Shown here piece by piece: positions 4,305-61,726 of a stretch of DNA of 64,000 nucleotides. Positions within the stretch are counted from its first letter, which is position 1; each line of letters starts with the position of its first letter. This DNA comes from a virus: positions 79,837 to 143,836 of the IMG/VR virus record IMGVR_UViG_3300032241_002567, one strand, 5' to 3'. The translations under genes were made by a program, and so were the position numbers. Under the pieces are notes generated by a model that had not been told where the DNA came from, ran no database searches, and worked only from the letters and a program-made list of their open reading frames with translations.

Positions 4305-4925
4305 TTATTGTTTTAGATTTTGAATCCTCTTCTTAGCCTCTTCTAATTCTTTTTTCTTTAAATCTAATTCTTTTTTAGCTTGTATCTTAAGATTAGCGGC
4401 ATTAGAATTTGCATCTTTCATTTTATTTTCTTGATCTTTTATATCATTTTGTGCTGTTTGAATATCATTTCTAGTAACTTGACTATCTCCTTGATTTTGT
4501 TGTAAATCTTTTTGTTTTTCTTCTAAATCTTTTTGTTTTTGTTGTAAAGTTTCCTCAGATTTTTTAACATTTCTTTCTTGTTCTAATTCTTCGGCATATT
4601 TAGCAAAAAGAGGATTAGATGGAGTATTAGGATCATCTTTTTGATCTGGATTTTTCCAAAGTATTTGTCCTTTAGTTTTAGAAGTTGGGTGTTTAAGAAA
4701 CTTTGCTGCTAATAATTTATTATATAAATCTTGTGCTATACCTGTTTCAGATGGTTTTTCATCATCGATATAAGTATCGTATATTTGTTTTAATTTAGCT
4801 TTATATTTATCAAATTGCTTTTTATTCATTTCAGATTGATTAAAAAGAGTCATGTCTGCCTTTATATCTAAAGGTACTTGCTCTTTATCTAAATCAAAAT
4901 TTTCGTATGTTTTTAAATATTTCAT
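4305..4925 (-). CDS. Coiled-coil protein with MKYLKTYENF leader (putative internal head protein)
   Basis: Shared N-terminal leader; K/E/Q-rich heptad C-terminal half. Confidence 0.7.
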   Translation of the reverse strand: MKYLKTYENFDLDKEQVPLDIKADMTLFNQSEMNKKQFDKYKAKLKQIYDTYIDDEKPSETGIAQDLYNKLLAAKFLKHPTSKTKGQILWKNPDQKDDPNTPSNPLFAKYAEELEQERNVKKSEETLQQKQKDLEEKQKDLQQNQGDSQVTRNDIQTAQNDIKDQENKMKDANSNAANLKIQAKKELDLKKKELEEAKKRIQNLKQ

Positions 4926-7525
4926 TTTCCTGCTAATAAATTATAATATGTTTCATATGAAATACCTTCAAAATCTTTTTTAAGTCTTGTAGGATCACTG
5001 AGTGTTTTACCAACAACAGATTCATCGCCAAATTCAGAACCTTTCATCAATTTAGCTAATGGTGCTCTAAGTTGTGTTTTTCTACCAATCCCTTTATCAG
5101 CACCAATAATAGTTGGCATAATGATTTCTTCTTCTATTTGGTCTGATAAATTTTTTTGATTCGTTGCTTTTTTTATACTTTTGAATTTAAATTTATTACC
5201 GTCTGATATAGGTTTTTCCATTTTAATTAATCCCATAAAGACATCACAATTAGCTTTGATTGGCTCATTGAAATAACTTTTTTCTAGTTGTGATCCACCA
5301 TAGTAAGCCCATATAAGACTTTCATTAAGCTTAGTGTATTTTACTAGTATATTGTTTTCTTGTTTTTCTATTACTTCACAAACTAATGTTGGATGTTTTG
5401 TTTTGATTATTTTTTTACCACTATTATCTTCTACTTCTTTTGAAGAAGTATATGTTATAGCAAAAAAGTTTCCTTTATCTAATTGATTATATGATAAACT
5501 TTTAGTTTCTTGCCAAAACAATTTATCACTAGTTTTAGTTTCATTTTCTAAATCTTTTTTATCATCAGAATATTTAGTTTCAATATCTTTCATATCTAGT
5601 CCAAAATATTTACTTATTAAAGTTGCTCTATTTTTTTCGTAAGATTTTAAAGTATTTTCATTAATCATATCTCTAATAAATTGCCCTAATGGATTGCCTG
5701 TAACAATTTTTTTACCCAATGTTGTTTTCATTTGCCCCCCACTTAATAACTTTTGATATCTAGGATTTTCTAATAAAGCAGAAATTTGATCAGTAAATTT
5801 ATCATATATTTTAATATTTACCCAAGGGCCATATCCAGGGCCAGCATTTTCACTAGGCACCGGCGCACTTTCTCTACTAGAACCAATATATTTATATTCA
5901 CTATAAGTTTGCATAGAAATTTTTCCATTAGGTCTATTTGAAGGTATAGTATTATGTTTATATAAACGATAGGCTTGACCAAATAAATTAGCAATAGAAA
6001 TTATACTTTCTCTTGCATCTTTATTTTGTTTCATTTCTTCTTTCATTTTATTGGTATTTGCTGGCATTTCAACACTATTTTCAACTTTTTCTGCAATTTC
6101 ATTTGCTTTTTTTAGTTCAACTTTCCATTTATTTTCTTCACCTTCAGAAAAATATTTTTCCCAAATTGTTTTAACGTTTTTTTCTTCACTTTCTTCGGTT
6201 TCATTTTCTTCTATCGATTCAACTTCTTCTTTTGATATATTTTCTTCTTCTGGTGATGGGGGAAGTGTAGCAATTTCCTCAAAAATTAAAGATTCTTTTT
6301 TAAGTGAGGAAATATTATATTCTTTTAACATAGATTCATATAAATTTATTATATTATCTATGTTAAGATATTTTTTATCTTTTAATGAATAAAATATTTG
6401 TAACATTGAAGCTATATCTTTTGAAATTTTATCAATATTTAAAGATTCGGTTACTGAAAAGCCTTTTATTTCATTAAAATTTTCTATAATAGAATAACCT
6501 AATTTTTTCAACTCATCTGAATTCTGATTATTTACCAATGTTCTTATTTCATTTAAATTTGATTTTAAATTTAAGTTAAAGACTCTTAATAGATTTTCAT
6601 ATGTTTTATCAGTTTGAATATGTACTGGTAAATTACTTTCTTTTATAAAATTAAAATATTTTAATTGTAAAAAATTTTCTTGTAATAAGCCATTTTTAAC
6701 AATTAAAACTTTTTTTGTCTTTGGATCAGTATAATCAATATTTATAACTGGTTCTAATTTTACATTTTTTGGATCAATAGTAAATATTGTTTTTGGGTAT
6801 GTTATATATTGCAATTTTAAACCATTTGTATCTATATCTAAAATTTTAACAAATCCAATTTTATTGTCCTTTGATGTATATTTATAAATTTTTCCCTTTT
6901 CAAATTTAGATTCTTCTTGTTTTTTTGGTTCATTTTGTATTTCATTGCCAAATATTAATAATTCTTTCAAAAATGATAAAACAGAATCATCAAAATTATC
7001 TTCTATTTGTTCTTCTTGTTTTGGAATTTTCATTTTTTCAAGTTCTTCTTTGAATTTTTCTAATTTATCAATTAAATCTTGTTTATTTCCTCCTTCGAAA
7101 CTATCATCAGGAAGTTTATTTATGAAATCTATGCAACCTGATATTAAACCATTTTCACCATTTTCTTTATCTAAAAGAAATTTAATTTTTTCTTCATCTG
7201 TTCGCTCACCAGCTACTATATTATAAATTTCTCTTAAAATTTCTTTGACTAATAAATCATTAGCAGCATTTTTTTCATCTGAAAAAGCAACTGCTATATT
7301 TTCTAATTCTTTTTCAATTGATTTAACTACTCCATCAATTTTAGTTAAATTATACCCAATTTTTAATTTTCTAATAGCTGAATTAATAAATCTACCTAAT
7401 AAAGATCCACCAAAAGTAATATTATTTGTTAATGAAGATTCATTTATTTTAAATTCTTCTTTTGTTTCAACTTTTATATCGTTAATTGTGGATAAAAATC
7501 CATTCCTATTGTATAAATATTTCAT
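4922..7525 (-). CDS. Large hypothetical protein, probable virion/internal protein
   Basis: 867-aa ORF with late motif at 7548; MKYL start, INE and internal LKYFNFIKES motifs; 4-bp overlap with downstream gene. Confidence 0.7.
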   Translation of the reverse strand: MKYLYNRNGFLSTINDIKVETKEEFKINESSLTNNITFGGSLLGRFINSAIRKLKIGYNLTKIDGVVKSIEKELENIAVAFSDEKNAANDLLVKEILREIYNIVAGERTDEEKIKFLLDKENGENGLISGCIDFINKLPDDSFEGGNKQDLIDKLEKFKEELEKMKIPKQEEQIEDNFDDSVLSFLKELLIFGNEIQNEPKKQEESKFEKGKIYKYTSKDNKIGFVKILDIDTNGLKLQYITYPKTIFTIDPKNVKLEPVINIDYTDPKTKKVLIVKNGLLQENFLQLKYFNFIKESNLPVHIQTDKTYENLLRVFNLNLKSNLNEIRTLVNNQNSDELKKLGYSIIENFNEIKGFSVTESLNIDKISKDIASMLQIFYSLKDKKYLNIDNIINLYESMLKEYNISSLKKESLIFEEIATLPPSPEEENISKEEVESIEENETEESEEKNVKTIWEKYFSEGEENKWKVELKKANEIAEKVENSVEMPANTNKMKEEMKQNKDARESIISIANLFGQAYRLYKHNTIPSNRPNGKISMQTYSEYKYIGSSRESAPVPSENAGPGYGPWVNIKIYDKFTDQISALLENPRYQKLLSGGQMKTTLGKKIVTGNPLGQFIRDMINENTLKSYEKNRATLISKYFGLDMKDIETKYSDDKKDLENETKTSDKLFWQETKSLSYNQLDKGNFFAITYTSSKEVEDNSGKKIIKTKHPTLVCEVIEKQENNILVKYTKLNESLIWAYYGGSQLEKSYFNEPIKANCDVFMGLIKMEKPISDGNKFKFKSIKKATNQKNLSDQIEEEIIMPTIIGADKGIGRKTQLRAPLAKLMKGSEFGDESVVGKTLSDPTRLKKDFEGISYETYYNLLAGK

Positions 7526-7660
7526 GAAAAAATATAATATTTTTAAGTATATATTAAACCTCTAAATCCTATTATAAAAAATTATAAAAAAACCTAATTT
7601 GAGGCATAAAATCTAATTTTTTTTGAAATATATAATGTATTAATTTAATAAATTAATTTT

Positions 7661-7945
7661 ATGAGATTCAAGGAATTAAAGGTAGGTGAAAAGATTTTAA
7701 CAAATTCTATGAATATAGAAGAAGAACTTACCAAACACAATATGCAGTGGTTAATTAACTCTGAAATAGAGAATGCTGTAGTGGAAATCAAAAACAATAC
7801 ATTAATCTGGAAAAATGGGACTTTTTTTGCTGGCAATTGGTATTATGGTATATGGCAAGATGGCAATTTTCACGGAACATGGGAAAATGGTATATGGGAA
7901 AATGGTCACTTTGACGGTAAATGGAAGTCTGGGATTAAAAACTAA
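7661..7945 (+). CDS. Hypothetical protein with [W/F]xxGx pentapeptide-like repeats
   Basis: WKNGT-FFAGN-WYYGI-WQDGN-FHGT-WENGI-WENGH-FDGK-WKSGI. Confidence 0.65.
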   Translation: MRFKELKVGEKILTNSMNIEEELTKHNMQWLINSEIENAVVEIKNNTLIWKNGTFFAGNWYYGIWQDGNFHGTWENGIWENGHFDGKWKSGIKN

Positions 7946-7979
7946 TCCAGAAATGGATATAAAAAATAAATTTTCTTTT

Positions 7980-8484: not shown

Positions 8485-8754
8485 ATGGAAAATAAATCAA
8501 TTTGCTCAAATCCATGGTGTAAAGCACCTTATTCATATGAAGGAGATATTGCTCCTGGTCAATGTCCTAAATGTATAAGTTTTGATAAAGACTTATCAGG
8601 TGGAGTTACTTGGGTTACGAAAAATTATACAGAACCAAGAGACGATGGTAGAGTACACGAAATTATGATAAATATGGATGGAATGAGTAAATCAAATTAT
8701 AGTGGAAATGGAAGACCTTTATTGGGTTTAATTAAAAAATTTTTAGGAAAATGA
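8485..8754 (+). CDS. Small zinc-ribbon protein
   Basis: CSNPWC...CPKC; late motif at 8472. Confidence 0.7.
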   Translation: MENKSICSNPWCKAPYSYEGDIAPGQCPKCISFDKDLSGGVTWVTKNYTEPRDDGRVHEIMINMDGMSKSNYSGNGRPLLGLIKKFLGK

Positions 8755-9593
8755 TAGGACACATTTTTGATATTGATACATTAATTAGTGTTGATTCACA
8801 TCCTTGGATTGTTGATAAAAATAATCCAAATAATCCGTTAATGAAAATTTCTAAAACAGATTATAATTTATTTAAAAATGGAGTTTATAAAAAGCAAGGA
8901 AATAAAATCGAATATAATGGAAAAACATATTGGCTTCCAAGTGATGTGTTTGAAAAATTAAAAGTTATTGCTAAAAAAAATAAAATTGGATTGAATGACT
9001 TTGCTATATCTTTAAAAGAATTTTTAAATGAAGATATGGCTGATGAATTAAATTTTGAAATAAATTGGGAATCTATTAAACATTTAAAAAATAAAAACGA
9101 AGATATTTATATAGTTTGCTCTAATAATACTGAAAAATATTATGGAAAAATTTTAAAGAAATTAATGGAAAAATTAAAATGGGAAGGAATAGATGTTAAG
9201 AAATTTTATTATATTAATGAAACATTTTACAATATTAATACCGATGAAATAATTTTTAAAAAGGCATTAATTAATTTACAACATTTAATAGGATATGAAA
9301 TTCAAAAAGAAAAGTTTATAGATAAAGAAGTTACAAAATATTCAAAATTAAATTTTTATGATAATGACTTTGACACATTAAAAATGATAGATGAAATTAA
9401 TTCATATTTAAGGTTTATATTATCTAAATCAGATGTTGGAATCAAACAAGTTGTAAAAGAAGGAATTGACTATGATAAACCAGAATTTGTAGTAAATAAA
9501 ATAACAGGAAATAAATATAATAATATTATAACAAAATCAGTTAAAATTAATAATTCTTATCTAATGAAATTTGAAAATTTTAAATGGAAATAA
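8751..9593 (+). CDS. Hypothetical protein, possible HAD-like fold
   Basis: N-terminal IFDIDTL and late FYDND motifs; C-terminal YLMKFENF resembles the shared leader. Confidence 0.6.
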   Translation: MIGHIFDIDTLISVDSHPWIVDKNNPNNPLMKISKTDYNLFKNGVYKKQGNKIEYNGKTYWLPSDVFEKLKVIAKKNKIGLNDFAISLKEFLNEDMADELNFEINWESIKHLKNKNEDIYIVCSNNTEKYYGKILKKLMEKLKWEGIDVKKFYYINETFYNINTDEIIFKKALINLQHLIGYEIQKEKFIDKEVTKYSKLNFYDNDFDTLKMIDEINSYLRFILSKSDVGIKQVVKEGIDYDKPEFVVNKITGNKYNNIITKSVKINNSYLMKFENFKWK

Positions 9594-9625
9594 AAAAAGC
9601 GGTTTTAAACCGCTTTTTTTATTTC
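9587..9625. terminator. Bidirectional terminator, 19-bp arms
   Basis: gaaataaaaaaagcggttt-t-aaaccgctttttttatttc, covers both stop codons. Confidence 0.85.
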
Positions 9626-9984
9626 TTTTTCTTCCTTGCTTTAGCTTTTTTTGCCTGTGCCCATAATTTAGCATCCGCCTTTCTTGCTCCGCCAGCACCA
9701 GTTATAAACGAATTGACTCTTCCGGTTGCCCAAGCTTCCTGAGGTGTACCAGGACGATGTCCGGAATTCCAAGCGGCTCTTCCTTTTTTATATACTTTTT
9801 TTAGAATAGAAGAAGGTATACCACTTGCCTTTGATTTATTTGCTATCATTTTTGCGGCTTTTGAATTTGGATTATCAACCGAACCTGATTCTGAGCCTTC
9901 TAAAATAATATCTTCTATTAAATAGAAATAATCTTTAAAATCAATATCTTCGCAAAAATTTTCAAAAGTTTTAATATTTACCAT
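9619..9984 (-). CDS. Basic DUF5824-like viral protein with leader MVNIKTFENF
   Basis: SGIPSSILKKVYKKGRAAWNSGHRPG...WATGRVNSF motif. Confidence 0.65.
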   Translation of the reverse strand: MVNIKTFENFCEDIDFKDYFYLIEDIILEGSESGSVDNPNSKAAKMIANKSKASGIPSSILKKVYKKGRAAWNSGHRPGTPQEAWATGRVNSFITGAGGARKADAKLWAQAKKAKARKKKK

Positions 9985-11102: not shown

Positions 11103-11122
11103 ATTAATCCTCTTTTTTATCA
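11084..11122. terminator. 19-bp perfect palindrome spanning two convergent stop codons
   Basis: tgataaaaaagaggattaa-a-ttaatcctcttttttatca; both proteins end DKKED*. Confidence 0.85.
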
Positions 11123-11373
11123 AACATTCTTTGATAAGCTTTGGTTGCTGCGGATTTTTTAGTTTTTACTCTTTTGCCTTTACCACCTTTTCCAGAAGTA
11201 TAATCAGCATCCCAGTCTTTTTTATATTCTTTTTTACCACGAAATCTATCAATTTCTTTTTTCATAGCACCAGGATTTTTTGTCAAATATTTACCTGGTA
11301 TTTTATGACCTTTATAATATTCAGATTTCTTTTTTTCAAGTAAAAATTCTTCAAAAGTAAAAATATTTTCCAT
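11104..11373 (-). CDS. Small basic protein with leader MENIFTFEEFLLE
   Basis: Late motif at 11378; lysine-rich; leader ends in LLE, a candidate protease site. Confidence 0.7.
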   Translation of the reverse strand: MENIFTFEEFLLEKKKSEYYKGHKIPGKYLTKNPGAMKKEIDRFRGKKEYKKDWDADYTSGKGGKGKRVKTKKSAATKAYQRMFDKKED

Positions 11374-15000: not shown

Positions 15001-15235
15001 AAATGCATCAAGTGTTTTTTCAAAATTTATATTTAGAGAAATGGTAGAATCCGCAGCAGTCGAATTAGTTGATGCTAATACAATTAAATATTTTAATGAT
15101 ATTTTAAAAAATCAAGAGTATCCTGATTATGATAAGGCGGATTATTCTGCTCTAAATAATATAACTAGACAAAGAAAATTTGTAAATCAATACGGTAATA
15201 AAAATACTTATGGTGGACAAAATAATTGGTTTTAA
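12041..15235 (+). CDS. terL: Terminase large subunit (T4 gp17-like) containing an intein
   Basis: YFAEKY, LRDYQ, Walker A SRQSGK/T, Walker B LYLDEFAH, ITSTPKG, FNQEY; nuclease SVDISEGLGQDYS, VVEYN and GNDDTVM. Confidence 0.95.
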   Translation: MTIAKKQQQQEENKKFIFTTKNVSEISEQMSDGVIIKRYMNPWFKGEVGVRRSGISFGITQDEVQEYIRCMDDVQYFAEKYCQIKREDGSIGPIKLRDYQKGILDLYKNPRVILCASRQSGKALRDNSYVWTIYGKKFISDLKVGEKIFGDDGKLTTVTGVFPQGKKQLYKITFSDNTSVECCGEHLWGLYNHERIYKVMQLNDFKDNYLTKRGDSKFYTKVAPCVEYETKELKIDPYFLGLLIGDGGISNKGNYITSIDESIINYCREEVKNYNCELVLSDRCTYRITTLTKGKNNILTGLLDEFNLKVKSYEKHIPNIYLTSDKSQRIQLLQGLMDTDGCVDSKKGGVEFCTTSKQLSIDFVELCNSLGIKTSATTRQTSFTYKGEKKLGRLSYLIKMYVNNTDFNIFKLERKNVNVRKDKKFNLATYRGIEKIEKIEIDNCTCISVDNKSKLFLTNNFIPTHNTINAAISILHFITFNNDKNVMIVANLRDTTIEIVDKIKSIYVNLPFFLKVGIKNWNQKSMVCENGCKIRTAARSKAPAIGFTIDFLYLDEFAHIPSNIIEPYYTAVYPIVSAVNNSKIVITSTPKGMNLFYKLLIDSERDELDPLKTNFKSKRIYWYEVEGRFVTYFRLFDNKLFEYGLTKEDVFEQVKAAFPQTKVEMKWIADLEKHVIHIYNKHEGIITPSEDVKKFMVEKDDKQIFIQQLAYVTTWQEETIKEIGGEDAFNQEYGLRFVDGSRSLLSEALIDDLLKNKKPYIHYPSYEFDRKLKFNYEDLKFVDDTSIFSPLDRKKMKIILSVDISEGLGQDYSVINMFRITPKPIETIENYKREYKYLSDFFHLQQFGIYRSNLVSVRQLAELFYVLSFEYFDPENVKAVVEYNTYGGQFLAEMPHLFDGNNNYGSGIFFRYKHRIDSEEEKIGLRITSNKEFLVKDYQEHMNKRNFEINNATNINEITTFIKHVLPSGNIRYAADTGNDDTVMTIVNASSVFSKFIFREMVESAAVELVDANTIKYFNDILKNQEYPDYDKADYSALNNITRQRKFVNQYGNKNTYGGQNNWF
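12407..13438 (+). mobile_element. 344-aa intein with LAGLIDADG endonuclease, Ala1 class-3 type
   Basis: Inserted in Walker A (GK|ALRD...PTHN|T); block B EHLW, block F CTCISVD, block G THN; motifs LGLLIGDG and LQGLMDTDG. Confidence 0.92.
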
Positions 15236-17553: not shown

Positions 17554-18069
17554 ATGAAACATATTAGAAAATTTGAAGGTTTTAGAAACAATAAACCAGA
17601 AGCTCAAGAAACAGTAAATGAAACTGTATTCCAGGTTGAAAATACTTATAGAGTAAATATAATTGCTGACGTAGAAGCAAAACTTTTATCCGCTTATGCA
17701 AAAAAAGTTAAGCAAAACATGAATAAAGAAATTACCGATTTAATGGGCAATGCTATGTTAGCAGAAGAACTTGTTAAATGGGTTTTAATAAACGGTTTAG
17801 ATGTGGAAAAAATACCAGCTTCAGCAATTATAGGCGGAGCACAGGGTCAAGGTCAGTCACAAGGTCAGTCACAAGGTCAGTCACAAGGTCAAGCACAAGT
17901 TCAGTCTCAATCACAAGATCAAGCACAAAGTCAACCCCAAGCTCAAGTTCAATCTCAACCTCAAGTTCAAGTTCAATCTCAACCTCAGGGTCAAGTGCAA
18001 ACACAGAGTCAATCACAAGATATGGAAGAAGTACAATCTCAAAAAGGTAACGAAGAATTACCAGTTTAA
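17554..18069 (+). CDS. Protein with leader MKHIRKFEGF and Gln-rich tail
   Basis: Shared leader, TVNE site, QSQG/QSQP repeats; late motif at 17522. Confidence 0.75.
   Translation: MKHIRKFEGFRNNKPEAQETVNETVFQVENTYRVNIIADVEAKLLSAYAKKVKQNMNKEITDLMGNAMLAEELVKWVLINGLDVEKIPASAIIGGAQGQGQSQGQSQGQSQGQAQVQSQSQDQAQSQPQAQVQSQPQVQVQSQPQGQVQTQSQSQDMEEVQSQKGNEELPV
17842..18018 (+). repeat. Coding tandem repeats (caaggtcagtca x3, then degenerate QSQP/QVQ units)
   Basis: Directly visible in sequence. Confidence 0.85.
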
Positions 18070-18142
18070 TATTTGAATTTTAAATAAAAAAGTCGCTTAA
18101 TTGAGCGACTTTTTTATTTAAAATTCAAATATTAAACTGGTA
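18059..18142. terminator. 39-bp perfect inverted repeat / bidirectional terminator
   Basis: taccagtttaatatttgaattttaaataaaaaagtcgct-taattg-reverse complement; both convergent proteins end PV*. Confidence 0.9.
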
Positions 18143-19660: not shown

Positions 19661-19693
19661 AAAAAATTGCCCTATTTTATAGGGCAATTTTTT
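19661..19693. terminator. Bidirectional terminator
   Basis: aaaaaattgccctat-ttt-atagggcaatttttt. Confidence 0.75.
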
Positions 19694-20283
19694 GCTGAAT
19701 AAATAAACTTTTCATTTTTTAATATTTTTAATCCAAGTGCTTTAGCTGTTGTCATGACATCTAATATACATTCATTTTCTGCTCCACCAACTATTACAAT
19801 TTCTTCTCCTTTTATAGATTTAAATAAATCATATAATTTAATAGGAGAATGAAACCATTTATGATTATTGCCTATATAAACTATTATAGTTCCTTCAGTT
19901 GTTTTAAAATATTCGCCTCTTTGTATATTAGAACCTTTAGATTTTATTTCGTTATAAGTTTTTTCGGATAAGATATTTTTATAAAAATCGACATCAACAT
20001 CATAATTATATCTTTTTTCGATTAAATCAACTTGATTTTTAAACCTATATAAATCATTTTTATTTTCTATGTCCGGTTGTTCATCATACAAAAAATCTTT
20101 ATCAGGATTTTTTCCTTCGTGGTGATTATCAAATATTTGATAAACTTTATCAAAATCGTTACAATATTCATTAAGTTGTGCCAAATAATTATCATTAAAA
20201 TATTTTTTAAATGACTTTTGCACATCAACAATAATTAAAATTCTATCTTTAGAAAAATTCTCAAATAATTTAATATATTTCAT
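19672..20283 (-). CDS. Isochorismatase/cysteine-hydrolase-like protein with leader MKYIKLFENF
   Basis: LIIVDVQ and VGGAENECI motifs. Confidence 0.7.
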   Translation of the reverse strand: MKYIKLFENFSKDRILIIVDVQKSFKKYFNDNYLAQLNEYCNDFDKVYQIFDNHHEGKNPDKDFLYDEQPDIENKNDLYRFKNQVDLIEKRYNYDVDVDFYKNILSEKTYNEIKSKGSNIQRGEYFKTTEGTIIVYIGNNHKWFHSPIKLYDLFKSIKGEEIVIVGGAENECILDVMTTAKALGLKILKNEKFIYSAKNCPIK

Positions 20284-20313
20284 TATTTATATATTAAATA
20301 AAAATCCATTACT

Positions 20314-24134: not shown

Positions 24135-24731
24135 ATGATACATCTTAAAGATTTTAATTCTTATGAAAATATAAGTGAAAATCTAAAATATCATATAGAT
24201 AATGATTTATCTATTCTGGAAAATGTTTTTAGACCTGGTTCTGATTCATTTTTTTCTTTACTAAAAGAAGCAAGAGATTTATATGAAAATGGTTATGTTT
24301 CTTTTTCTGATTTAGATAAAGAATTATTTGAAACAACAGATATTGGTAAATTTGCTGAATTTGAAGGCAAATTAGTAGCGCTTGATTTCCCTTTCGAAAA
24401 TGATGCCATTAAGGAAGAAGTTGAAGGAATTAATGAAAAGGCTAAATCTAAAAAAAGTCATCCACAATTAAATCACCCAACTAGAAGTTCAGGTCCAAAA
24501 AAATACCAAGTCTATGTTAAAAATCCTAAAACTGGTAATATTAAGAAAATTAATTTTGGTGATTTAAAGGGTGGATTAACAACTAAAATTAATAATCCTG
24601 CTGCAAGAAAATCATTTGTAGCTAGACATAAATGTAGCACTAAAAAGGATAAAATGACGGCGGGGTTTTGGAGCTGTAGGATCCCGCGGTATAAAAATTT
24701 ATATTCAGGCTCTTACAGCGGGTTTTGGTAG
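24135..24731 (+). CDS. Conserved-type phage protein with leader and basic His/Cys C-terminal domain
   Basis: MIHLKDFNSYE leader; KKYQVYVKNPKTGNIKKINFGD...RKSFVARHKC...GFWSC. Confidence 0.7.
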   Translation: MIHLKDFNSYENISENLKYHIDNDLSILENVFRPGSDSFFSLLKEARDLYENGYVSFSDLDKELFETTDIGKFAEFEGKLVALDFPFENDAIKEEVEGINEKAKSKKSHPQLNHPTRSSGPKKYQVYVKNPKTGNIKKINFGDLKGGLTTKINNPAARKSFVARHKCSTKKDKMTAGFWSCRIPRYKNLYSGSYSGFW

Positions 24732-24754: not shown

Positions 24755-25204
24755 TATTTTGAGATAATAAAAGATTATACATTTCAAAAAGTATATAAAT
24801 TTGAGTTAGATGATATTGATTATATCAGTATATTTGAGGGCAAAGATGATATTTGGTTTTTTGAATATAAATTATATAACGGCTCATATATGGAAGTAAA
24901 TAAAAATCCATATAAAATATTATCTTCTGTAGTAAATATTGTTAAAGACTTTATTAATAAAAACAATCCTAATGTTATTATAATGAAACCTAAACTGGCA
25001 TCAGGTGAAATTTTTATTGAAGGTGAATTAAATAAAAGAGGTAGAACATTTCTACAACTTTATAAACATTTTACAGATTTAAAATATTGCATTTTACAAA
25101 GTTCGGAATTACGACAAACCGTATTGTTTTTATATAAAAGCGATTTTAATATAAATGATTTAATAAAGTCGAATTTCGAATCCTTTTCGAGATTAAAATA
25201 TTAA
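24755..25204 (+). pseudogene. Hypothetical gene with damaged 5' end
   Basis: Frame open from 24755 without a start codon (first ATG 24890); upstream aaa cat tta ata ttt t gag looks like a frameshifted KHLIFE leader. Confidence 0.4.
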
Positions 25205-25236: not shown

Positions 25237-25626
25237 ATGAAATTAAAAAATTTTTTACAATTTAACGAAAACATGGATATGGATCATGAGATGCATCGTA
25301 ATGACGAAAATACTCATTACATGTTTTTTGAAAATCTCAGAACTATCAAAAGATTAGTTGATGAGCTATTAACCTTAGACGAAACAGAAGTAGATGAAAT
25401 ATTAGAAAGCGGACATGACTGGGCTGCTGATCATATTGCAGTTGCTAAGGTAGATATAGAACAAGTTTTTGACTTCTTAGTAAATAACACAGAAGAAGAC
25501 ATGGATTTTGAACATGAAGAAGATATGGATAATATGATGCATGAAACACCAGAAGAAACTGATATGGAAGACATGGAGGATTATTCATCAGATGGAGAAG
25601 AATACGGAGAAGATGAAGAAGAATAA
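25237..25626 (+). CDS. Acidic protein with leader MKLKNFLQFNE
   Basis: Late motif at 25209; HDWAADHI core; D/E/M-rich tail. Confidence 0.7.
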   Translation: MKLKNFLQFNENMDMDHEMHRNDENTHYMFFENLRTIKRLVDELLTLDETEVDEILESGHDWAADHIAVAKVDIEQVFDFLVNNTEEDMDFEHEEDMDNMMHETPEETDMEDMEDYSSDGEEYGEDEEE

Positions 25627-28704: not shown

Positions 28705-28708
28705 TTAT

Positions 28709-29383
28709 ATGAGATTTTTAAAATTATTTGAAGAATTCGCTATTAAAGAATTGCATACACTTATAGATAATAATCTATCATATATTAAAATACCTGATGC
28801 TAATAAACCAATTTCAACTTCGAATAAAAAATATAATGAAATAATTAATTTAATCAAAAATTATAATATATCTAATTTTGATTACTATAAACATGAATTT
28901 GAAGATATTGAAATAACTCCTGATAATAATTTTAAAAAATTATTATCTAATTTAAATAAATATTTATCAACGGAGGATATAATTGATGTTAATCAGAAAT
29001 TTCAATGTAGCATTACTAGTATTTTTAATAATCAATTTGACTTTGAATATGGAATTCCAAAACCTATAAGGAAATTAGGTTTAGGATACAAGTTATATAA
29101 ATTAGTATTATTTCATGAAAAATGGATTTTATCAGACTTTCGGGTAAGTAAACCTGCAAAAAAAATTTGGTATCATCTTATGCTAGATAAAGATTTATTG
29201 TGTTTTACATCAAATTATTACTCAGGTGTCATACTTAAAACTATTGATAATTCGTTAATAAAATCTATTTTAGATAAACTTAAACCTAAATATCAGGATC
29301 ATAATATAGAATATATTTTTGATGATTATTTGAAAGATAAAATCATGGAAATATATGGTGATTTATATTTTTATAAAAGATAA
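28709..29383 (+). CDS. GNAT-like protein with leader MRFLKLFEEF
   Basis: IPKPIRKLGLGYKLY acetyl-CoA-binding-like motif; S..AKKIW. Confidence 0.55.
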   Translation: MRFLKLFEEFAIKELHTLIDNNLSYIKIPDANKPISTSNKKYNEIINLIKNYNISNFDYYKHEFEDIEITPDNNFKKLLSNLNKYLSTEDIIDVNQKFQCSITSIFNNQFDFEYGIPKPIRKLGLGYKLYKLVLFHEKWILSDFRVSKPAKKIWYHLMLDKDLLCFTSNYYSGVILKTIDNSLIKSILDKLKPKYQDHNIEYIFDDYLKDKIMEIYGDLYFYKR

Positions 29384-37927: not shown

Positions 37928-40069
37928 ATGAAACCAGTAATGATTATTGAAAACAATAATAATCCATTAAGTTTAAACGAAGATGTTTTTAATTCTGGTG
38001 GTAAAAAGTCTTATTTACTTGGTGGTATATTCACGGAATTCGATATTAAAAATCGCAATGAAAGAGTTTATACTGCTCCTAAATTTTTACCATGTCTAGA
38101 AGAATTAAATAATAGAATCTCTAATATGGGTGTATATGGAGAATTTGACCATCCAGATGTATTTGATACTTCTTTACAAAGAGCTTCACATATAGTTAAA
38201 GAAGCTACTTTTAATAGAGAGGCGAATAGAGTTGAAGGTAAAATTCAACTGTTATCGACATTCTGGGGAAAGGAAGCAAGAGCATTGGTAGAAGATCAAT
38301 GCCCTATTTTCGTTTCTTCAAGAGCCGCTGGTGTAACCGAAAATGATGGAACTGTTACACTTAAAAAATTATTCACTTATGATATAGTCGCTGATCCTGG
38401 ATTTGGCTCAGCTAAAATGAATTCTATAAATGAATCTTTAAAATTACCAACAAATACTAACTATAGGATATACGAAATGTCCGATGAGTCAAAAATTAAC
38501 GATATATTCAATATGAACAACAATGATTTTGTTACAAGAGAACAACTATCAAGCTATTCAGATTTCTTAATCAAAGAGATTAATAAAACTAAGAAATCAG
38601 TAAATGAAGCTTTAAAGAAAGGTAATATAGAACCTAAAAAATTAGAACAACTTATGGAATACCAAGAAGTTTTAAATCAAACTAATGCTCAAATGGTTAA
38701 GTACTTAGATTATTTAGCTGAAACAGTTCAAGTAGTAGTTAATGAAAATAAAAGTTTAAAAGAAACTGCGGATAAACTTATCGCACATAATGATTATTTA
38801 ACTGAAAATCTTGAAAAAAATATAAACTATGTTGAATATTTAGCTGAGAATGTTGATAAATCAATTGGATATCAAGAATATTTAGCTGAGAATTTAGACA
38901 AAGCTATTGGATATCAAGAATATTTAGCTGAAAATTTGGATAAATCAATTGGTTATCAAGAGTATATTGCTGAAAATTTGGATAAAGCAATTGCTTATGG
39001 TGAATATATTGCTGAAAATTTAGACAAATCTATTGCTTATGGCGAATATATTGCTGAAAATGTTGATAATGCTATTGCGTATTCTGAATATTTAGCGGAA
39101 CATGTTGAAGGAAATATTGCATATTCTGAATATATAGCAGAACATTTAGATGATAATATCGCATATGGTGAATATATTGCTGAGAATCTTGATAAAGCTA
39201 TTTCATATTCAGGTATGATTTCTGAAAAATTAAATGGTAATAAAGTTAATGAATCTACAACAATTATACCAACTCTTGAGGAATGGGGATTTGAAAATGA
39301 AATCACAGAAGAAGAACCTATTGCAGCCGAAATTGAAGAAGTAATAGAAGAAATACCATCAGAAGAAACATCATCAGAAGAAATTACTTCGGATGAAATT
39401 GAAACTAATATAGTTTCAGAAGTTCCTAGTGAAGAAATTATTACTGAAATACCTTCAGAAGAAGATACTGTAGTTTTTGAAATTCCATCTTCTGAATTTA
39501 CAAGTGAAATTCCAAGTGAAATATCAATAGAAACTCCTACATTTACTGGCGAATCTGATACTGAATTATCTTTGCAGATAGATAATTTAATTGCTGAAGC
39601 TAAGAAAAGAAAAGTAGTTGAATCAAATGATTTACATTTCTTGAAATTTTTAAATAAAGCGCAAATTGATAGTTATTACAGTTTAACTAATGAGGAACAA
39701 GAAGTTGTTAAATTACACATTAACGGTAAATCTTATTTTAATAATACCGATGTTTTAAAATTAGTACAAGAAGCTTTATCTGTAAAAGCAGAGACTATGG
39801 AAGAAAAAATTGTAAGATTAATTCCAGAATCATTAAAAAATTCTTGGGAAACTTTGAATGAAAGTGCAAAGAAATCTATTTTATCACAAGCTAAATTAGG
39901 TTATGATTTAACTACGGAATCATCAATTGAACACTTCTGGTATACTAGAAATTTAAAGAAAAATGAATCTACCAAGACATTGGTAAATCATGATTCTTTA
40001 ATTCAAGAAGATAAACTTTCTGAGAAAGATGTAAATGCAATTTTAGAAAGAATTAAAAGTTTGAAATAA
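37928..40069 (+). CDS. Prohead protease (gp21-like) fused to repeat/scaffold domain
   Basis: NRNERVY, GEFDHP, ASH, VSSRAAG, YDIVADPG; then coiled coil, 14-aa repeats, acidic linker; directly upstream of capsid. Confidence 0.9.
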   Translation: MKPVMIIENNNNPLSLNEDVFNSGGKKSYLLGGIFTEFDIKNRNERVYTAPKFLPCLEELNNRISNMGVYGEFDHPDVFDTSLQRASHIVKEATFNREANRVEGKIQLLSTFWGKEARALVEDQCPIFVSSRAAGVTENDGTVTLKKLFTYDIVADPGFGSAKMNSINESLKLPTNTNYRIYEMSDESKINDIFNMNNNDFVTREQLSSYSDFLIKEINKTKKSVNEALKKGNIEPKKLEQLMEYQEVLNQTNAQMVKYLDYLAETVQVVVNENKSLKETADKLIAHNDYLTENLEKNINYVEYLAENVDKSIGYQEYLAENLDKAIGYQEYLAENLDKSIGYQEYIAENLDKAIAYGEYIAENLDKSIAYGEYIAENVDNAIAYSEYLAEHVEGNIAYSEYIAEHLDDNIAYGEYIAENLDKAISYSGMISEKLNGNKVNESTTIIPTLEEWGFENEITEEEPIAAEIEEVIEEIPSEETSSEEITSDEIETNIVSEVPSEEIITEIPSEEDTVVFEIPSSEFTSEIPSEISIETPTFTGESDTELSLQIDNLIAEAKKRKVVESNDLHFLKFLNKAQIDSYYSLTNEEQEVVKLHINGKSYFNNTDVLKLVQEALSVKAETMEEKIVRLIPESLKNSWETLNESAKKSILSQAKLGYDLTTESSIEHFWYTRNLKKNESTKTLVNHDSLIQEDKLSEKDVNAILERIKSLK
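38786..39235 (+). repeat. About 10.5 tandem 42-nt (14-aa) repeats YxEY[LI]AENLDK[SA]I[GA]
   Basis: Directly visible in DNA and protein. Confidence 0.92.
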
Positions 40070-40245: not shown

Positions 40246-42018
40246 ATGAATCACATTCGTATAGACAAACAAAAAGCTATTAACAAATGGGCTCCTGTAT
40301 TGGAGAACATGGGTGTTAAAGATGCTGATAGAATTGATTGGATGGCGGAATATGCTGAGTATCATGCTATAAACGAAAATGCGTATGCAAACGTTTCTAA
40401 CGTAGCTGGTTTAGGTACTATCACTGCACCACAAGCATCATTATTACCAGGTACTACAATCGGTACTAACTGGTCAGCAAATAGCGGTACAAATGGTTCT
40501 GGTGATTTAGGTCAAAACTTATTACCAGTTGCTATGAAAATTGCTGCTCAAACAATAGGTTTAGATCTAGTTGCTGTAAAACCAACTCCAGGTCCTAAAA
40601 TGGATTTACTTTATATTGATTTTCAATATGATGATACAAATACAGGTAATTCTGATGAAAGACCAACTGTATTTAAATTAGATTTCTCTATTTCAGGAGC
40701 TGCTGGTTTATCTACTTTACAAGGTACTATTTCAACTGACTTAACAGCTACATCAATAATTCAATCTGTTGGTGGATTAACTAAAACTGATGGTACACCA
40801 GCTAGAATCTTTACCAAGATTAATAATAATCCTGGCACATTCTCTAATGGTTTATTTTACACTACAACAGACCCTAATACTGCTGGTGCAAATCTTTCTG
40901 GTATAGTTGAATTTTTAGGATATTCAAGAATTGATGGATATCCAATGTTCAGAGCATTTAAACAATCAAACACTGCTCAAACATTATCATATCCTTATGT
41001 TAATACTAACACATCTGCTGGTACAGTATGGGGCTTCGATCCAACAAGAAATACTTTTGGACCAACAAACTCTATGATTTCACAAATTTCACAAGTATTT
41101 GGAGTATCTGGTATGACATTTGGTATATCTCTAATCTCAGCATTAGAAGATCATATTCCAGGTTATGTATCTAACTTTAATGCTGGTGGTAGATATCCAA
41201 TGGATCGTGCACAAGAAGAAAACATCTACGCTGGTCAAATCGGTCCAAAGATTTCTTCCAAATCAATCGCTGTTGGTACAATTGAAGTTTCTTCTGCTTT
41301 AAGAAGAACAGAAATTGAAGATATTAAAGCTAATACAGGCATGGATATCGTCCAAAAAATGGAATCAATACTTGTTAATGAATTATCTCAAACAATTTCT
41401 AAACAAATCGTAGGTAAAATATTTGAAATGGGTGGTATTAATAGACAATCAGCTCCTCTTTATGCTGGTAATACTTCTTATAACTCAATTTCAGGTGCTA
41501 CAATATTTGACTTAGATACAGCATATGTTCAAGCTGGTCCAGGTGGTGAAACTACTCACGCTGTTCAGCGTAAATTAATCACTAAAATGGTTCACGCTTC
41601 TAACTATATCGCAACAGAAGGACGTGTTGGTCCTGCTCAATTTGCAGTAACAAATGGTGCTCTTGCAGCTTCTTTAATGGATATTGCTGGTTATACAATC
41701 AATCCTCTTAAATCTAAATTAAATAGCTCAGGACAACTTTACCCAGTAGGACAAATCGGTGATATTCAAGTATATGTTGATCCATATATGAAATACAATG
41801 ATAACAGAATTGTTATTGGTAGAAAGAATAATCCAGATCAACCAGGTATTATATTTGTTCCTTACTTAATGGCACAATCAATTAGCATCATCTCTGAAGC
41901 AACATTTGCTCCAAGAATGCTTTTAAGAAGCCGTTATGCAGTAGCAGAAGTGGGTTGGTATCCACAAAAACAATTTATGACTATAATAGTTAATGATGCT
42001 TCACAATATCTTAACTAA
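40246..42018 (+). CDS. Major capsid protein (T4 gp23-like)
   Basis: KWAPVLE, IGLDLVAVKP, EIEDIKA-GMD-ESILVNELSQTI, G-I-VYVDPY, GIIFVPY, TFAPRMLLRSRYA. Confidence 0.93.
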   Translation: MNHIRIDKQKAINKWAPVLENMGVKDADRIDWMAEYAEYHAINENAYANVSNVAGLGTITAPQASLLPGTTIGTNWSANSGTNGSGDLGQNLLPVAMKIAAQTIGLDLVAVKPTPGPKMDLLYIDFQYDDTNTGNSDERPTVFKLDFSISGAAGLSTLQGTISTDLTATSIIQSVGGLTKTDGTPARIFTKINNNPGTFSNGLFYTTTDPNTAGANLSGIVEFLGYSRIDGYPMFRAFKQSNTAQTLSYPYVNTNTSAGTVWGFDPTRNTFGPTNSMISQISQVFGVSGMTFGISLISALEDHIPGYVSNFNAGGRYPMDRAQEENIYAGQIGPKISSKSIAVGTIEVSSALRRTEIEDIKANTGMDIVQKMESILVNELSQTISKQIVGKIFEMGGINRQSAPLYAGNTSYNSISGATIFDLDTAYVQAGPGGETTHAVQRKLITKMVHASNYIATEGRVGPAQFAVTNGALAASLMDIAGYTINPLKSKLNSSGQLYPVGQIGDIQVYVDPYMKYNDNRIVIGRKNNPDQPGIIFVPYLMAQSISIISEATFAPRMLLRSRYAVAEVGWYPQKQFMTIIVNDASQYLN

Positions 42019-60927: not shown

Positions 60928-60928
60928 C

Positions 60929-60960
60929 AAAAAGACACTCAAAATTGAGTGTCTTTTTTT
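60929..60960 (+). terminator. Terminator after tmRNA
   Basis: aaaaagacactcaa-aa-ttgagtgtcttttttt. Confidence 0.85.
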
Positions 60961-60973
60961 TATATATACTATT

Positions 60974-61726
60974 ATGAGGTATATAAAATTTTTTGAAGAT
61001 TTTAATTATATTGTTGATGATGATTCAGAAGCAACTTTAAAGAGAGCTTTTGCTCGCCCAAAAGATGTCAATATAGATTTTGATTTAGAATATATTAAGT
61101 ATGCTAAAAGATTAGCAAAAGTAAAAAAATCTGATCCAAAATATACACTACAGGTTAAAGCAAAAGATGTAATGTCAGAAGGAATTATATCTATTCCAAA
61201 GGGAATATTTATAGTTTTAAATGATTTTAAATTTGGAAAATCTCTTTTTAAGAAAGATTCTATTATTGAATCAGATGGATTTGGTAATCTTACTATCACA
61301 AATACAGATGGAACTAGTGAAACAAAAAAAGCAAAAGGACCCAAGAGAGGATTTGAAAGATTTTATTTAAATTTTTATGCAAATACTAAAAGAAAAGAAG
61401 ATAAAATCAGTCCATTTACACGAAAAGAAAAAGATTTAATTAATTTTATTTATTCAAATAAAAATAAAGCTTCAAAAGAAGAAATAACAAATTTTTTACA
61501 GGGGTTCGCCACAACCGCAGAAACCGAATTAGAACCAAGAAAATTGAAAATATATCGTGATGCTTTTATTTATGAAATAAATAAAAAGTTTAGAGAATCT
61601 GGATTAGGAACAGATAATTTGATTTTATTACCAACAGGAATGAAAGGCACTTCAAAAGGACAGGCTAAAGAATTTGATTATAAAATAAATCCTGATTATC
61701 TTAATATTATTAAGACCTTAATATAA
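60974..61726 (+). CDS. Hypothetical protein with leader MRYIKFFEDF
   Basis: Shared leader; TATATA motif immediately upstream. Confidence 0.7.
   Translation: MRYIKFFEDFNYIVDDDSEATLKRAFARPKDVNIDFDLEYIKYAKRLAKVKKSDPKYTLQVKAKDVMSEGIISIPKGIFIVLNDFKFGKSLFKKDSIIESDGFGNLTITNTDGTSETKKAKGPKRGFERFYLNFYANTKRKEDKISPFTRKEKDLINFIYSNKNKASKEEITNFLQGFATTAETELEPRKLKIYRDAFIYEINKKFRESGLGTDNLILLPTGMKGTSKGQAKEFDYKINPDYLNIIKTLI

What the first reader, a model, noticed from the sequence alone, without database searches (positions are those of the whole stretch)
4305..61726. Shared N-terminal leader on about 10 unrelated late proteins: a candidate capsid cargo-loading code
Seen: otherwise unrelated ORFs begin with near-identical peptides: MKYLKTYENF (4925-), MVNIKTFENF (9984-), MENIFTFEEFLLE (11373-), MKHIRKFEGF (17554), MKYIKLFENF (20283-), MIHLKDFNSYE (24135), MKLKNFLQFNE (25237), MRFLKLFEEF (28709) and MRYIKFFEDF (60974). 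A copy also sits at the C-terminus of 8751..9593 (YLMKFENF). Most of these genes lie behind the late TATATA motif. [ILV]NE or LLE sites recur after several leaders and in the capsid (AINE) and protease-scaffold (LNE, INE, VNE). Established: T4 internal proteins use a 10-aa capsid-targeting sequence (MKTYQEFIAE) removed by gp21 after Glu. Inference: this phage uses a portable tag to package, and possibly inject, a diverse cargo that includes enzyme-like proteins (cysteine hydrolase 19672, GNAT-like 28709).
Basis: partly seen in the sequence, partly recalled or inferred. Interest (0 to 1): 0.8.

Follow-up and report, generated by a model that had tools for sequence, protein, structure and literature searches.

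The report
T4-like capsid address tag, huge phage
About one gene in ten of this uncultured huge phage starts with the same short peptide, which resembles both phage T4's "load into the head" tag and this phage's own scaffold repeats. The peptide most likely marks enzymes, including counter-defence ones, for packaging into the capsid, but no experiment has tested this.

Summary
Observation confirmed. All nine window ORFs start with M-[KR]-x-[IL]-K-x-[FY]-E-x-[FY] or a degenerate form of it. At least eight more lie elsewhere on the 144-kb contig. The protein bodies are unrelated. AT bias does not explain it: chance expects 0.09 window matches and 5 were seen. A strict pattern hit more than 117 viral loci but only 2 short contigs in 596 Gb of prokaryote genomes. 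AT-rich control phages have none. Synonymous codons vary freely, so selection acts on the peptide.

The phage has a T4-type head (gp20, gp23, gp21-like protease fused to a scaffold). The scaffold carries about 10 repeats, Y-[SQ]-E-Y-[IL]-A-E-N, close to T4's tag MKTYQEFIAE. Relatives carry long tags such as MKYIKLFEDFINE. A regex built from those tags picks only IPII and IPIII among T4 ORFs.

Tagged cargo includes ART, NUDIX and an isochorismatase-like hydrolase. In relatives it includes Tad3 and Acb1-like enzymes.

Two families carry the motif at the C-terminus.

The best reading is an expanded T4-type capsid-targeting tag (confidence about 0.6). Packaging, cleavage and injection are untested, and no cultured relative exists. 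This scan has noted the same or similar tags on other huge-phage DNA.

The parts
4305..4925 (-). Tagged ORF, 206 aa, unknown body. Tag MKYLKTYENF lies at 4896-4925.
   Evidence: no Pfam or PHROG hit
9619..9984 (-). Tagged ORF, 121 aa, with DUF5824 at aa 48-99. Tag MVNIKTFENF lies at 9955-9984.
   Evidence: the same domain carries MKYIKLFEDFINE or MQYVKLYEDFLNE in relatives
11104..11373 (-). Tagged ORF, 89 aa. Long-form tag MENIFTFEEFLLE lies at 11335-11373 and fits Ar-x-x-F-[ILV]-x-E.
   Evidence: an orthologue carries MKYIKLFEDF
17554..18069 (+). Tagged ORF, 171 aa. Tag MKHIRKFEGF lies at 17554-17583. A conserved VNE|TV site lies at aa 21-25.
19672..20283 (-). Tagged isochorismatase-like cysteine hydrolase, 203 aa. 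Tag MKYIKLFENF lies at 20254-20283. The domain starts at aa 14.
   Evidence: 1075 homologues. The tag is kept in 36 of 36 aligned, with invariant D20/K90/C172. AF2 model pLDDT 85, tag region pLDDT 48. Foldseek top hits are nicotinamidase/isochorismatase, prob 0.95-1.0, E 6e-3.
24135..24731 (+). Tagged ORF, 198 aa (phrog_7595 at the C-terminus). Degenerate tag MIHLKDFNSYENISE lies at 24135-24179, with a conserved ISE|N site.
25237..25626 (+). Tagged acidic ORF, 129 aa. Degenerate tag MKLKNFLQFNE lies at 25237-25269.
28709..29383 (+). Tagged ORF, 224 aa, GNAT-like (a lead only). Tag MRFLKLFEEF lies at 28709-28738.
   Evidence: Atlas: viral clusters score 0.93-0.94, some with Acetyltransf_1; structural TM 0.35-0.46 to GNATs. 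No PDB sequence hit.
60974..61726 (+). Tagged ORF, 250 aa, unknown body. Tag MRYIKFFEDF lies at 60974-61003.
   Evidence: no family found
8751..9593 (+). HAD-like (DxDxT) ORF, 280 aa, with a C-terminal copy of the tag core, ..SYLMKFENFKWK*, at 9555-9590.
   Evidence: The C-terminal motif is conserved in orthologues at 31-46% identity: LIKAFESFKFGK*, LKKTFESFIYKRY*, DLFENFGRKGF*.
24890..25204 (+). ORF of 104 aa ending ..LIKSNFESFSRLKY* at 25160-25201. Possible second C-terminal tag.
   Evidence: orthologues not examined
37928..40069 (+). gp21-like prohead protease (aa 1-200) fused to a scaffold. About 10 tandem 14-aa repeats x-Y-[SQ]-E-Y-[IL]-A-E-N-[LV]-D-K-[AS]-I lie at about 38699-39226. A tag-like helix DLHFLKFLNK lies at 39632-39658.
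   Evidence: phrog_207 E 1.5e-30. Peptidase_S77 20.5 bits, below the 27-bit cutoff. tblastn to annotated cyanophage gp21 E 7e-10. Repeats seen. C-terminal helix conserved in all 22 sequences aligned.
40246..42018 (+). gp23-type major capsid protein. Propeptide with a conserved I42-N-E|N45 site at 40369-40380.
   Evidence: Pfam Gp23 98 bits. The [ILM]-x-E-N site is conserved in most of the 20 relatives aligned. Where it has decayed (IFDN), a new [IL]NE|A follows.
35186..36970 (+). gp20-type portal protein.
   Evidence: Pfam Portal_T4 184 bits

Best explanation
The peptide M-K-[YH]-[IL]-K-[L/x]-[FY]-E-x-[FY] is a capsid-targeting tag of the same kind as T4's CTS. In relatives it is often extended by [ILV]-x-E.

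Proposed mechanism:
1. Tagged proteins are made together with head proteins.
2. The tag is a short amphipathic helix on a flexible linker. It docks the protein to the scaffolding core, or to the inner capsid face, of the assembling prohead. It does this by mimicking the scaffold's own repeat (Y-S-E-Y-[IL]-A-E-N) or its conserved helix (HFLKFLNK).
3. The gp21-like protease then destroys the scaffold at its [IL]-A-E|N repeats.
4. Where a site exists, the protease also trims the tag. The candidate sites are L-F-E|N inside the tag and [ILV]-x-E after it.
5. The cargo stays in the head and enters the next host with the DNA.

Shown here: the tag, its phage specificity, selection at the peptide level, the T4-type head module, the scaffold repeats and the cargo domain types.

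Inferred: docking, cleavage, packaging and injection.
For: (1) Real and non-random: 5 window matches against 0.09 expected. About 320 matches in 50 viral records against 0 for the reversed control.

(2) Phage-specific: more than 117 viral loci carry the strict pattern. Only 2 short MAG contigs carry it in 596 Gb of prokaryote genomes. It is absent from Flavobacterium, Chryseobacterium, Bacteroides, Salicola, Lak and cyanophage control genomes.

(3) Peptide-level selection: all synonymous codons are used at near-body frequencies. The tag is kept in 36 of 36 hydrolase orthologues over a variable, indel-rich linker. The core is also conserved at a C-terminus.

(4) T4-type head: Portal_T4 184 bits and Gp23 98 bits; gp21-like protease.

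(5) Scaffold repeats Y-[SQ]-E-Y-[IL]-A-E-N occur in the window protein and in 21 of 21 homologues from tag-bearing records. T4 ipII and ipIII start MKTYQEFIAE|A, and gp22 starts MLKEQLIAE|A.

(6) The regex ^M.{1,6}[FY][EQDN][EDNKQ]F[ILV].E was built from relatives' tags. It hits only IPII and IPIII among 294 T4 ORFs. It hits 63 of 2252 ORFs around tag loci, including MIQHYEEFIAEKK. T4 IPI starts MKTFKEF, which fits M-K-x-h-K-x-F, and its cut site lies 19 aa in.

(7) Orthologous cargo carries interchangeable long and short forms. The NUDIX has MKYLKLYENY here and MIKDYKDYIKE in L112. Nine Acb1-like enzymes each carry a variant.

(8) A consistent [ILV]-x-E|N rule: the protease N-terminus (IIE|N), the scaffold repeats, the MCP (INE|N) and the tag. 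The tag has L-x-E at positions 6-8 in 88% of 173 tags, and N is the commonest residue at position 9. [ILVM].EN is 9-fold enriched in the protease-scaffold.

(9) The cargo types are those known from injected proteins. ART-PolyVal 38 bits and NUDIX 43 bits. Tad3 E 4.8e-22, Acb1/2H and GNAT among 148 tagged proteins. ART and GNAT domains are described in injected polyvalent proteins (PMC7824862).

(10) No core replication or structural protein on the contig carries the tag.
Against: There is no virion proteome, and no cultured relative was found.

In the window's own tags, position 6 is Leu in only about half, so a cut at E8 is not a consistent rule. The hydrolase family has no conserved site at all.

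Tagged proteins are acidic on average, with a net charge of about -5. T4 IPs are basic.

TATATA also precedes 42% of untagged genes, so late timing is not established.

Five tag-rich records showed no detectable T4-type head or sheath genes; they are probably fragments, but this is unproven. LR756501 has the scaffold repeats but few tags.

A C-terminal tag has no T4 precedent.

The resemblance between the 10-aa tag and the scaffold motifs is short and could be shared amphipathic-helix character.
Confidence: 0.6

Rival explanations
1. The tag is a short linear docking motif for some other phage or host partner. Candidates are a chaperone, a modifying enzyme, a membrane (as an amphipathic helix) or an undiscovered compartment. 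On this reading it has nothing to do with the capsid.
For: The motif works at either terminus. It is predicted as a detached, low-confidence helix. Five tag-rich records show no head genes. Earlier scan work found another phage N-terminal tag that is linked to a radical-SAM enzyme rather than to capsids (e1-127136).
Against: The contig has no radical-SAM gene. The tag contains Glu and is followed by acidic linkers, which suits membrane binding poorly. The specific match to the T4 CTS, to the scaffold repeats and to the protease-site logic would be left unexplained. No alternative partner that co-occurs with the tag was identified.
Confidence: 0.2
2. The tag is mainly a protease-recognition propeptide. 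The gp21-like or another protease removes it to activate, release or degrade the protein in the cytoplasm, and the protein is never packaged.
For: L-x-E at positions 6-8 in 88% of 173 tags, and a second site ending at position 13 in 16%. [ILV]xE sites are conserved after the tag in two families.
Against: Many tags lack a consensus site. T4-type proteases are active inside the prohead (established knowledge of gp21). The residues N-terminal to the site (M-K-x-h-K) are as conserved as the site itself, which fits docking better than cleavage alone.
Confidence: 0.1
3. The conservation lies in the nucleic acid. It would be a translation-initiation enhancer on near-leaderless late mRNAs, or a recombination cassette that shuffles genes, like the T4 PeSLs.
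For: TATATA lies 10-11 nt upstream of the ATG in 37 of 173 tagged genes, so the 5' UTRs may be very short. MK starts are generic. Some genomes hold many identical 30-mers.
Against: Every synonymous codon is used at each position, at near-body frequencies. Substitutions are conservative at the amino-acid level (I/L, F/Y, K/R). The same peptide core is conserved at a C-terminus. Upstream sequences differ between copies.
Confidence: 0.05
4. It is a chance product of AT-rich codon usage (F, L, I, N, K, Y, E) near start codons.
For: The genome is 26% GC. All tag residues have AT-rich codons.
Against: Shuffles expect 0.09 against 5 observed. The reversed control gives 0 against about 320. AT-rich control phages give 0. 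There are 2 hits in 596 Gb of prokaryote genomes.
Confidence: 0.01

Closest known systems
Capsid targeting sequence (CTS) of phage T4 internal proteins IPI, IPII and IPIII, with processing by the gp21 prohead protease
   Same: A peptide of about 10 aa at the extreme N-terminus of otherwise unrelated proteins. The head is T4-type (gp20, gp21-like, gp23). The core Ar-x-x-F-[ILV]-x-E of long-form tags equals T4's YQEFIAE. M-K-x-h-K-x-F equals IPI's MKTFKEF. Cargo with counter-defence character parallels IPI* and Alt. The scaffold start also resembles the tag (gp22 MLKEQLIAE).
   Different: The scale differs: 7-10% of genes, and 9-30 strict-pattern copies in the large or complete relatives scanned, against three IPs in T4. 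The consensus is longer (MKYIKLFENF) and often has no cut site after it. Cargo is mostly enzymes, and acidic rather than basic. The motif also occurs C-terminally. The protease and scaffold are fused, with tandem CTS-like repeats. Nothing has been tested experimentally.
Ejection and inner-body proteins of phiKZ-like giant phages (SPN3US, 201phi2-1), processed by a gp21-like protease
   Same: Large capsids hold dozens of different internal proteins. Propeptides are removed after Glu by a gp21-family protease (PMC5694885 and PMC7411985, listed).
   Different: From my own knowledge, the motif in those phages is a cleavage site (S/A/G-x-E) on long, diverse propeptides, not a shared N-terminal address. 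Their presence in virions is shown by mass spectrometry.
Polyvalent proteins injected by phages (Iyer et al. 2017; discussed in PMC7824862)
   Same: The same effector domain repertoire (ART, GNAT, NUDIX, nucleotide-signal-degrading 2H enzymes), proposed to enter the host with the DNA. The contig's ART is of the ART-PolyVal family.
   Different: There, the domains are fused into one giant protein. Here, each is a separate small protein with its own address tag.
Encapsulin cargo-loading peptides
   Same: A short terminal peptide on a flexible linker, usable at either end, that directs unrelated enzymes into an HK97-fold shell.
   Different: Encapsulins have no portal, DNA, scaffold or maturation protease. 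Their sequence motif is different. The resemblance is by analogy only and was not tested.

Membership tests
T4-type capsid targeting sequence system | A short peptide at the extreme N-terminus, shared by otherwise unrelated proteins | tested here: met
   Nine window ORFs and at least eight more on the contig carry it. The bodies are unrelated.
T4-type capsid targeting sequence system | Sequence likeness to the T4 CTS (MKTYQEFIAE / MKTFKEF) | tested here: inconclusive
   Long-form tags in relatives, and 11104-11373 in the window, fit a regex that picks only IPII and IPIII in T4. Most window tags keep only M-K-x-h-K-x-F-E-x-F, which matches IPI's MKTFKEF over 7 aa. That is too short for statistics.
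T4-type capsid targeting sequence system | A gp21-family prohead protease and a T4-type head (gp20, gp23) in the same genome | tested here: met
   Portal_T4 184 bits and Gp23 98 bits. Protease phrog_207 E 1.5e-30 and tblastn to annotated gp21 E 7e-10. Pfam S77 itself scores below its cutoff (20.5 against 27 bits).
T4-type capsid targeting sequence system | The tag is removed by cleavage after Glu in [LI]-x-E | not testable with these tools
   A motif is present: L-x-E at 6-8 in 88% of 173 tags, and a site ending at 13 in 16%. It is inconsistent within the window. Mass spectrometry is needed.
T4-type capsid targeting sequence system | Tagged proteins are present inside virions, and the tag is sufficient to package a foreign protein | not testable with these tools
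   No cultured relative was found.
T4-type capsid targeting sequence system | Expression together with head proteins (late) | tested here: inconclusive
   TATATA lies upstream of 13 of 18 tagged genes against 63 of 150 others. TAnnTTTG lies upstream of 0 of 18 against 18 of 150. The same motif precedes sheath, TerL, protease and MCP. There are no expression data.
Isochorismatase-like cysteine hydrolases (for 19672-20283) | A Rossmann-like fold with an Asp-Lys-Cys triad | tested here: inconclusive
   D20, K90 and C172 are invariant in 36 sequences. Foldseek top hits are nicotinamidase/isochorismatase, prob 0.95-1.0, but E 6e-3 and TM 0.4-0.5. There is no Pfam or PDB sequence hit.
Radical-SAM-linked N-terminal tags (an earlier scan finding) | A radical-SAM/SPASM enzyme encoded alongside the tagged genes | tested here: not met
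   No PF04055 match on the 144-kb contig; the controls matched in 14 of 14 genomes. The contig is only about 26% of the genome.

The most novel reading that the evidence does not exclude
In Mahaphage-type huge phages of Bacteroidota, a CTS-family address tag marks 5-10% of all genes as capsid cargo. The tag can be read directly from sequence and works at either terminus. This 'injectome' would be a set of separate small enzymes and counter-defence proteins (ART, NUDIX, nicotinamidase-like, GNAT, Tad3, Acb1-like). Each would be loaded by mimicking the scaffold's own repeat and delivered with the DNA before any phage gene is expressed.
Probability: 0.45. Interest if true: 0.8.

Novelty: new variant of a known kind. 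Interest (0 to 1): 0.7.

Why it matters
If the tag does load the capsid, the packaged and injected proteins of a whole clade of uncultured huge phages could be predicted from sequence alone.

It would show that known counter-defence enzymes (anti-Thoeris Tad3, anti-CBASS Acb1-like, ADP-ribosyltransferases, NAD-related hydrolases) can be delivered pre-made with the DNA. Until now they have been thought of as early-expressed.

It would extend the T4 CTS from a three-protein curiosity to a general, scalable sorting system. It would also link the origin of the tag to the scaffold's protease-site repeats.

Finally, it would provide a short tag for loading proteins into very large capsids.

Tried and rejected
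- Pfam, PHROGs and PDB sequence searches on the window's tagged proteins were mostly blank.
- I looked for a cultured phage with the tag, hoping to find virion proteomics. tblastn with two cargo proteins hit only uncultured huge phages. A 30-nt consensus blastn gave mostly noise. Pattern scans of the Flavobacterium immuto, Chryseobacterium MA9V-1, Salicola SCTP-2, Bacteroides DAC16, Lak-C1 and S-SSM7 genomes gave zero hits.
- Literature searches for the motif string, and for CTS-like tags in huge phages, found nothing beyond T4 work.
- I tried to link the tag strictly to the T4-type head. Only 26 of 50 records have Gp23, and five tag-rich records have no head or sheath hits. This stays unresolved. 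The likely reason is fragmentation, because CheckV completeness is unreliable here.
- A one-residue-shorter tag pattern in LR756501 found only 2 copies.
- A secretion signal was rejected. The contig has ordinary hydrophobic signal peptides (MKKIIITLLLSILSLVAFSQ) that look quite different.
- A PIP-box or clamp-binding motif was considered and rejected because the spacing does not fit (inference).
- Co-variation between tag variants and scaffold-repeat variants was looked at by eye and showed no clear signal.

Full report
CONTEXT

The window is bases 79837-143836 of a 143.8-kb, 26% GC IMG/VR virus record. CheckV rates it about 26% complete. Its nearest named relatives are the 634-735-kb uncultured phages LR745206, LR756502, LR756504 and LR756501. 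Nucleotide identity is 72% across the head genes, and the protease is 65-68% identical at the protein level. Al-Shayeb et al. place all their genomes over 634 kb in the Mahaphage clade and predict Bacteroidetes hosts (PMC7162821).

THE OBSERVATION

All nine quoted N-termini are present at the first ATG of the stated ORFs. The rest of the contig adds more:
- MKYLKLYEEF (G000 3708-3965-)
- MKYLKLYENY (18291-18707+)
- MKYLKYFEAK (34045+)
- MKYLKLFENF (67864-68688-)
- MKIKKFQQFLES (79743+)
- several degenerate forms

That is roughly 12 strong and 6 weak tags among 168 ORFs. After the first 14 residues the proteins are unrelated; the best pairwise E-value is 0.01. A degenerate DNA pattern for M-[KR]-x-[ILMFV]-K-x-[FY]-E-x-[FY] gives 5 window matches with up to 1 mismatch. 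Shuffles expect 0.09. The contig has 7 exact matches, all at ORF starts, and none for the reversed pattern.

NOT CODON BIAS, NOT NUCLEIC-ACID LEVEL

Almost every hit lies at the very start of an ORF. The same pattern hit only two short MAG contigs in 596 Gb of prokaryote genomes.
- In 50 of those viral records the looser pattern occurs about 320 times, against 0 for the reversed control, with up to 30 copies per genome.
- The published huge phages carry 9-17 copies each: LR756504, LR745206, LR756502 and LR756500.
- It is absent from AT-rich or large control phages: Flavobacterium immuto, Chryseobacterium MA9V-1, Bacteroides DAC16, Salicola SCTP-2, Lak-C1 and cyanophage S-SSM7.
- Across 173 non-redundant tags, every synonymous codon is used at near-body frequencies.
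- In 36 orthologues of the tagged hydrolase (62-85% identity) the tag is kept while the 2-4-residue linker behind it varies and has indels.
- The tag core is conserved at the C-terminus of the HAD-like protein 8751-9593 and its orthologues..LMKFENFKWK*..LIKAFESFKFGK*..LKKTFESFIYKRY*..DLFENFGRKGF*. A second possible case is 24890-25204.

The selected object is therefore a peptide, not a start-codon context or a DNA cassette.

THE HEAD MODULE AND THE SCAFFOLD

The window encodes a gp20-type portal (184 bits) and a gp23-type capsid protein (98 bits). It also encodes a 713-aa protein whose first 200 residues are a gp21-family prohead protease. The protease scores phrog_207 E 1.5e-30, and tblastn to annotated cyanophage gp21 gives E 7e-10. 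Pfam S77 scores 20.5 bits, below its cutoff.

The rest of that protein is a scaffold. It has about ten tandem 14-residue repeats, x-Y-[SQ]-E-Y-[IL]-A-E-N-[LV]-D-K-[AS]-I. All 21 protease-scaffold homologues recovered from tag-bearing records have 6-13 such repeats. T4's ipII and ipIII begin MKTYQEFIAE|A and gp22 begins MLKEQLIAE|A, read directly from NC_000866. The scaffold repeat is therefore almost the T4 CTS.

The capsid propeptide has a conserved [ST]-I-N-E|N-A-Y site. In two distant relatives that site has decayed (IFDN), and a new [IL]-N-E|A sits five residues on. The protease itself starts MKPVMIIE|N. Together these suggest a cut rule [ILM]-x-E|[NAS]. [ILVM].EN is nine-fold enriched in the protease-scaffold.

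Of 173 tags, 88% have L-[FY]-E at positions 6-8, with N the commonest residue at position 9. Another 16% have a second site ending at position 13, against about 2% background per position.

The scaffold's C-terminal domain opens with a conserved helix, [HNP]-F-[LF]-K-[FL]-[LI]. This resembles K-Y-L-K-L-F of the tag. That resemblance is only suggestive.

LINK TO THE T4 CTS

Relatives carry long forms such as MKYIKLFEDFINEA, MKHIKLFEEFVTEK and MKTVKLFEEFLAES, and short forms such as MIQHYEEFIAEKK and MNIHTYEEFINEA. A regex written from the long forms, ^M.{1,6}[FY][EQDN][EDNKQ]F[ILV].E, hits exactly IPII and IPIII among 294 ORFs in 120 kb of T4. It hits nothing else anywhere in those ORFs. It also hits 63 of 2252 ORFs around the tag loci.

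T4 IPI starts MKTFKEF, which fits M-K-x-h-K-x-F as in the tag. Its cut site ITE|A lies 19 residues in, which leaves the 76-residue IPI* reported in PMC3012670. In T4, then, the address and the cut site can be separate. That fits window tags that have no adjacent site.

Orthologous cargo swaps tag forms. The NUDIX protein has MKYLKLYENY here and MIKDYKDYIKE in L112. Nine Acb1-like enzymes in related phages each carry a different variant just before the domain start.

CARGO

On this contig:
- ART-PolyVal (38 bits) and NUDIX (43 bits)
- DUF5824
- an isochorismatase-like hydrolase: invariant D20/K90/C172; AF2 pLDDT 85, with the tag as a detached low-confidence helix; Foldseek top hits are nicotinamidases and isochorismatases at weak E-values
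- a GNAT-like lead
- a HAD-like protein with the C-terminal tag
- several proteins of unknown function

Among 148 tagged proteins from other contigs, most have no Pfam family. Those that do include Tad3 (E 4.8e-22), Acb1/2H, GNATs, P-loop kinases, ankyrin, SET and ATP-grasp. The Tad3 proteins start MKKIKLYEEFLNES and MKTVKLFEEFLAES. ART and GNAT domains are described in injected polyvalent proteins (PMC7824862). No replication or structural protein on the contig carries the tag.

WHAT REMAINS UNPROVEN, OR ARGUES AGAINST

- No cultured relative exists, so there is no virion proteome.
- Half of the window's tags lack Leu at position 6, and the hydrolase family has no conserved site. Cleavage is therefore not universal.
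- [ILV]xE sites just after the tag are near background in this genome. They are conserved only within two families (ISE|N for 24135; [IV][NK]E|[ST]V for 17554).
- Tagged proteins are acidic on average.
- TATATA lies upstream of 13 of 18 tagged genes, but also of 63 of 150 others, including non-structural ones. Late timing is plausible, not shown.
- Five tag-rich records lack detectable head or sheath genes. They are probably fragments: G025 and G026, both rated '100% complete', match two different parts of LR756504. This was not resolved.
- LR756501 has the repeats but few tags.

VERDICT

The best explanation is an expanded T4-type capsid-targeting tag, partly doubling as a prohead-protease site (confidence about 0.6). 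The main rival is a docking motif for some non-capsid partner (0.2). Protease-only processing (0.1), nucleic-acid-level explanations (0.05) and chance (0.01) are weaker.

This scan has noted the same tag on other DNA of this clade and similar tags elsewhere (e1-5340821, e1-5756284; e1-6005820, e1-5966943 and others). I found no description of it in the searchable literature.

Noticed in passing
window, e.g. 20284-20300 upstream of 19672-20283(-); 28690-28708; many others: TATATA ends only about 4-5 nt before the ATG in many genes. It starts at position -10/-11 in 37 of 173 tagged genes across phages, and a second class sits at -23 to -32. If it is a -10-like late promoter, these mRNAs would be leaderless or nearly so.
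   Followed up: partly
L185:3953-4411 (-) and L185:3592-3879 (-) (phage T4): T4 gene 57B (Acb1 family, annotated 'RNA ligase' in the record) starts MMEFKDF. This resembles the neighbouring ipI start MKTFKEF. Nine Acb1-like enzymes in related huge phages all carry CTS-like N-termini.
   Followed up: partly
G025 and G026 (IMG/VR records behind L050, L051): CheckV rates both records 100% complete. Their tag sites coincide with sites in two different parts of LR756504 (636 kb). They therefore look like two halves of one genome type, and completeness estimates for this clade are unreliable.
   Followed up: partly
window 12041-15235 (+): The large terminase is 1064 aa. PHROG hits to primase, DnaC-like loader and helicase families fall at residues 94-403. 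This may be an inserted element or a fused domain.
   Followed up: no
window 18132-19259 (-): A glutamine-synthetase-like gene (Gln-synt_C 58 bits). It lies between two tagged genes and behind a TATATA motif.
   Followed up: no
window 36650-36970 (portal C-terminus) and 39230-39560 (scaffold): The portal ends in a GGELGGSPGG low-complexity tail. The scaffold has an acidic EIPSEE repeat region after the Y-S-E-Y-I-A-E-N repeats.
   Followed up: no
window 4922-7525 (-): An 867-aa ORF next to the sheath gene starts MKYLYNRNGF, which is a partial tag. It holds five [ILVM].EN motifs. It is unclear whether it belongs to the tagged set.
   Followed up: no
L179:577-1170 (LR756501): The hydrolase orthologue in the 735-kb phage starts MKVIKFSDYLKE. 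This is a one-residue-shorter tag that still fits Ar-x-x-Ar-L-x-E. Only two such starts were found in that genome.
   Followed up: partly
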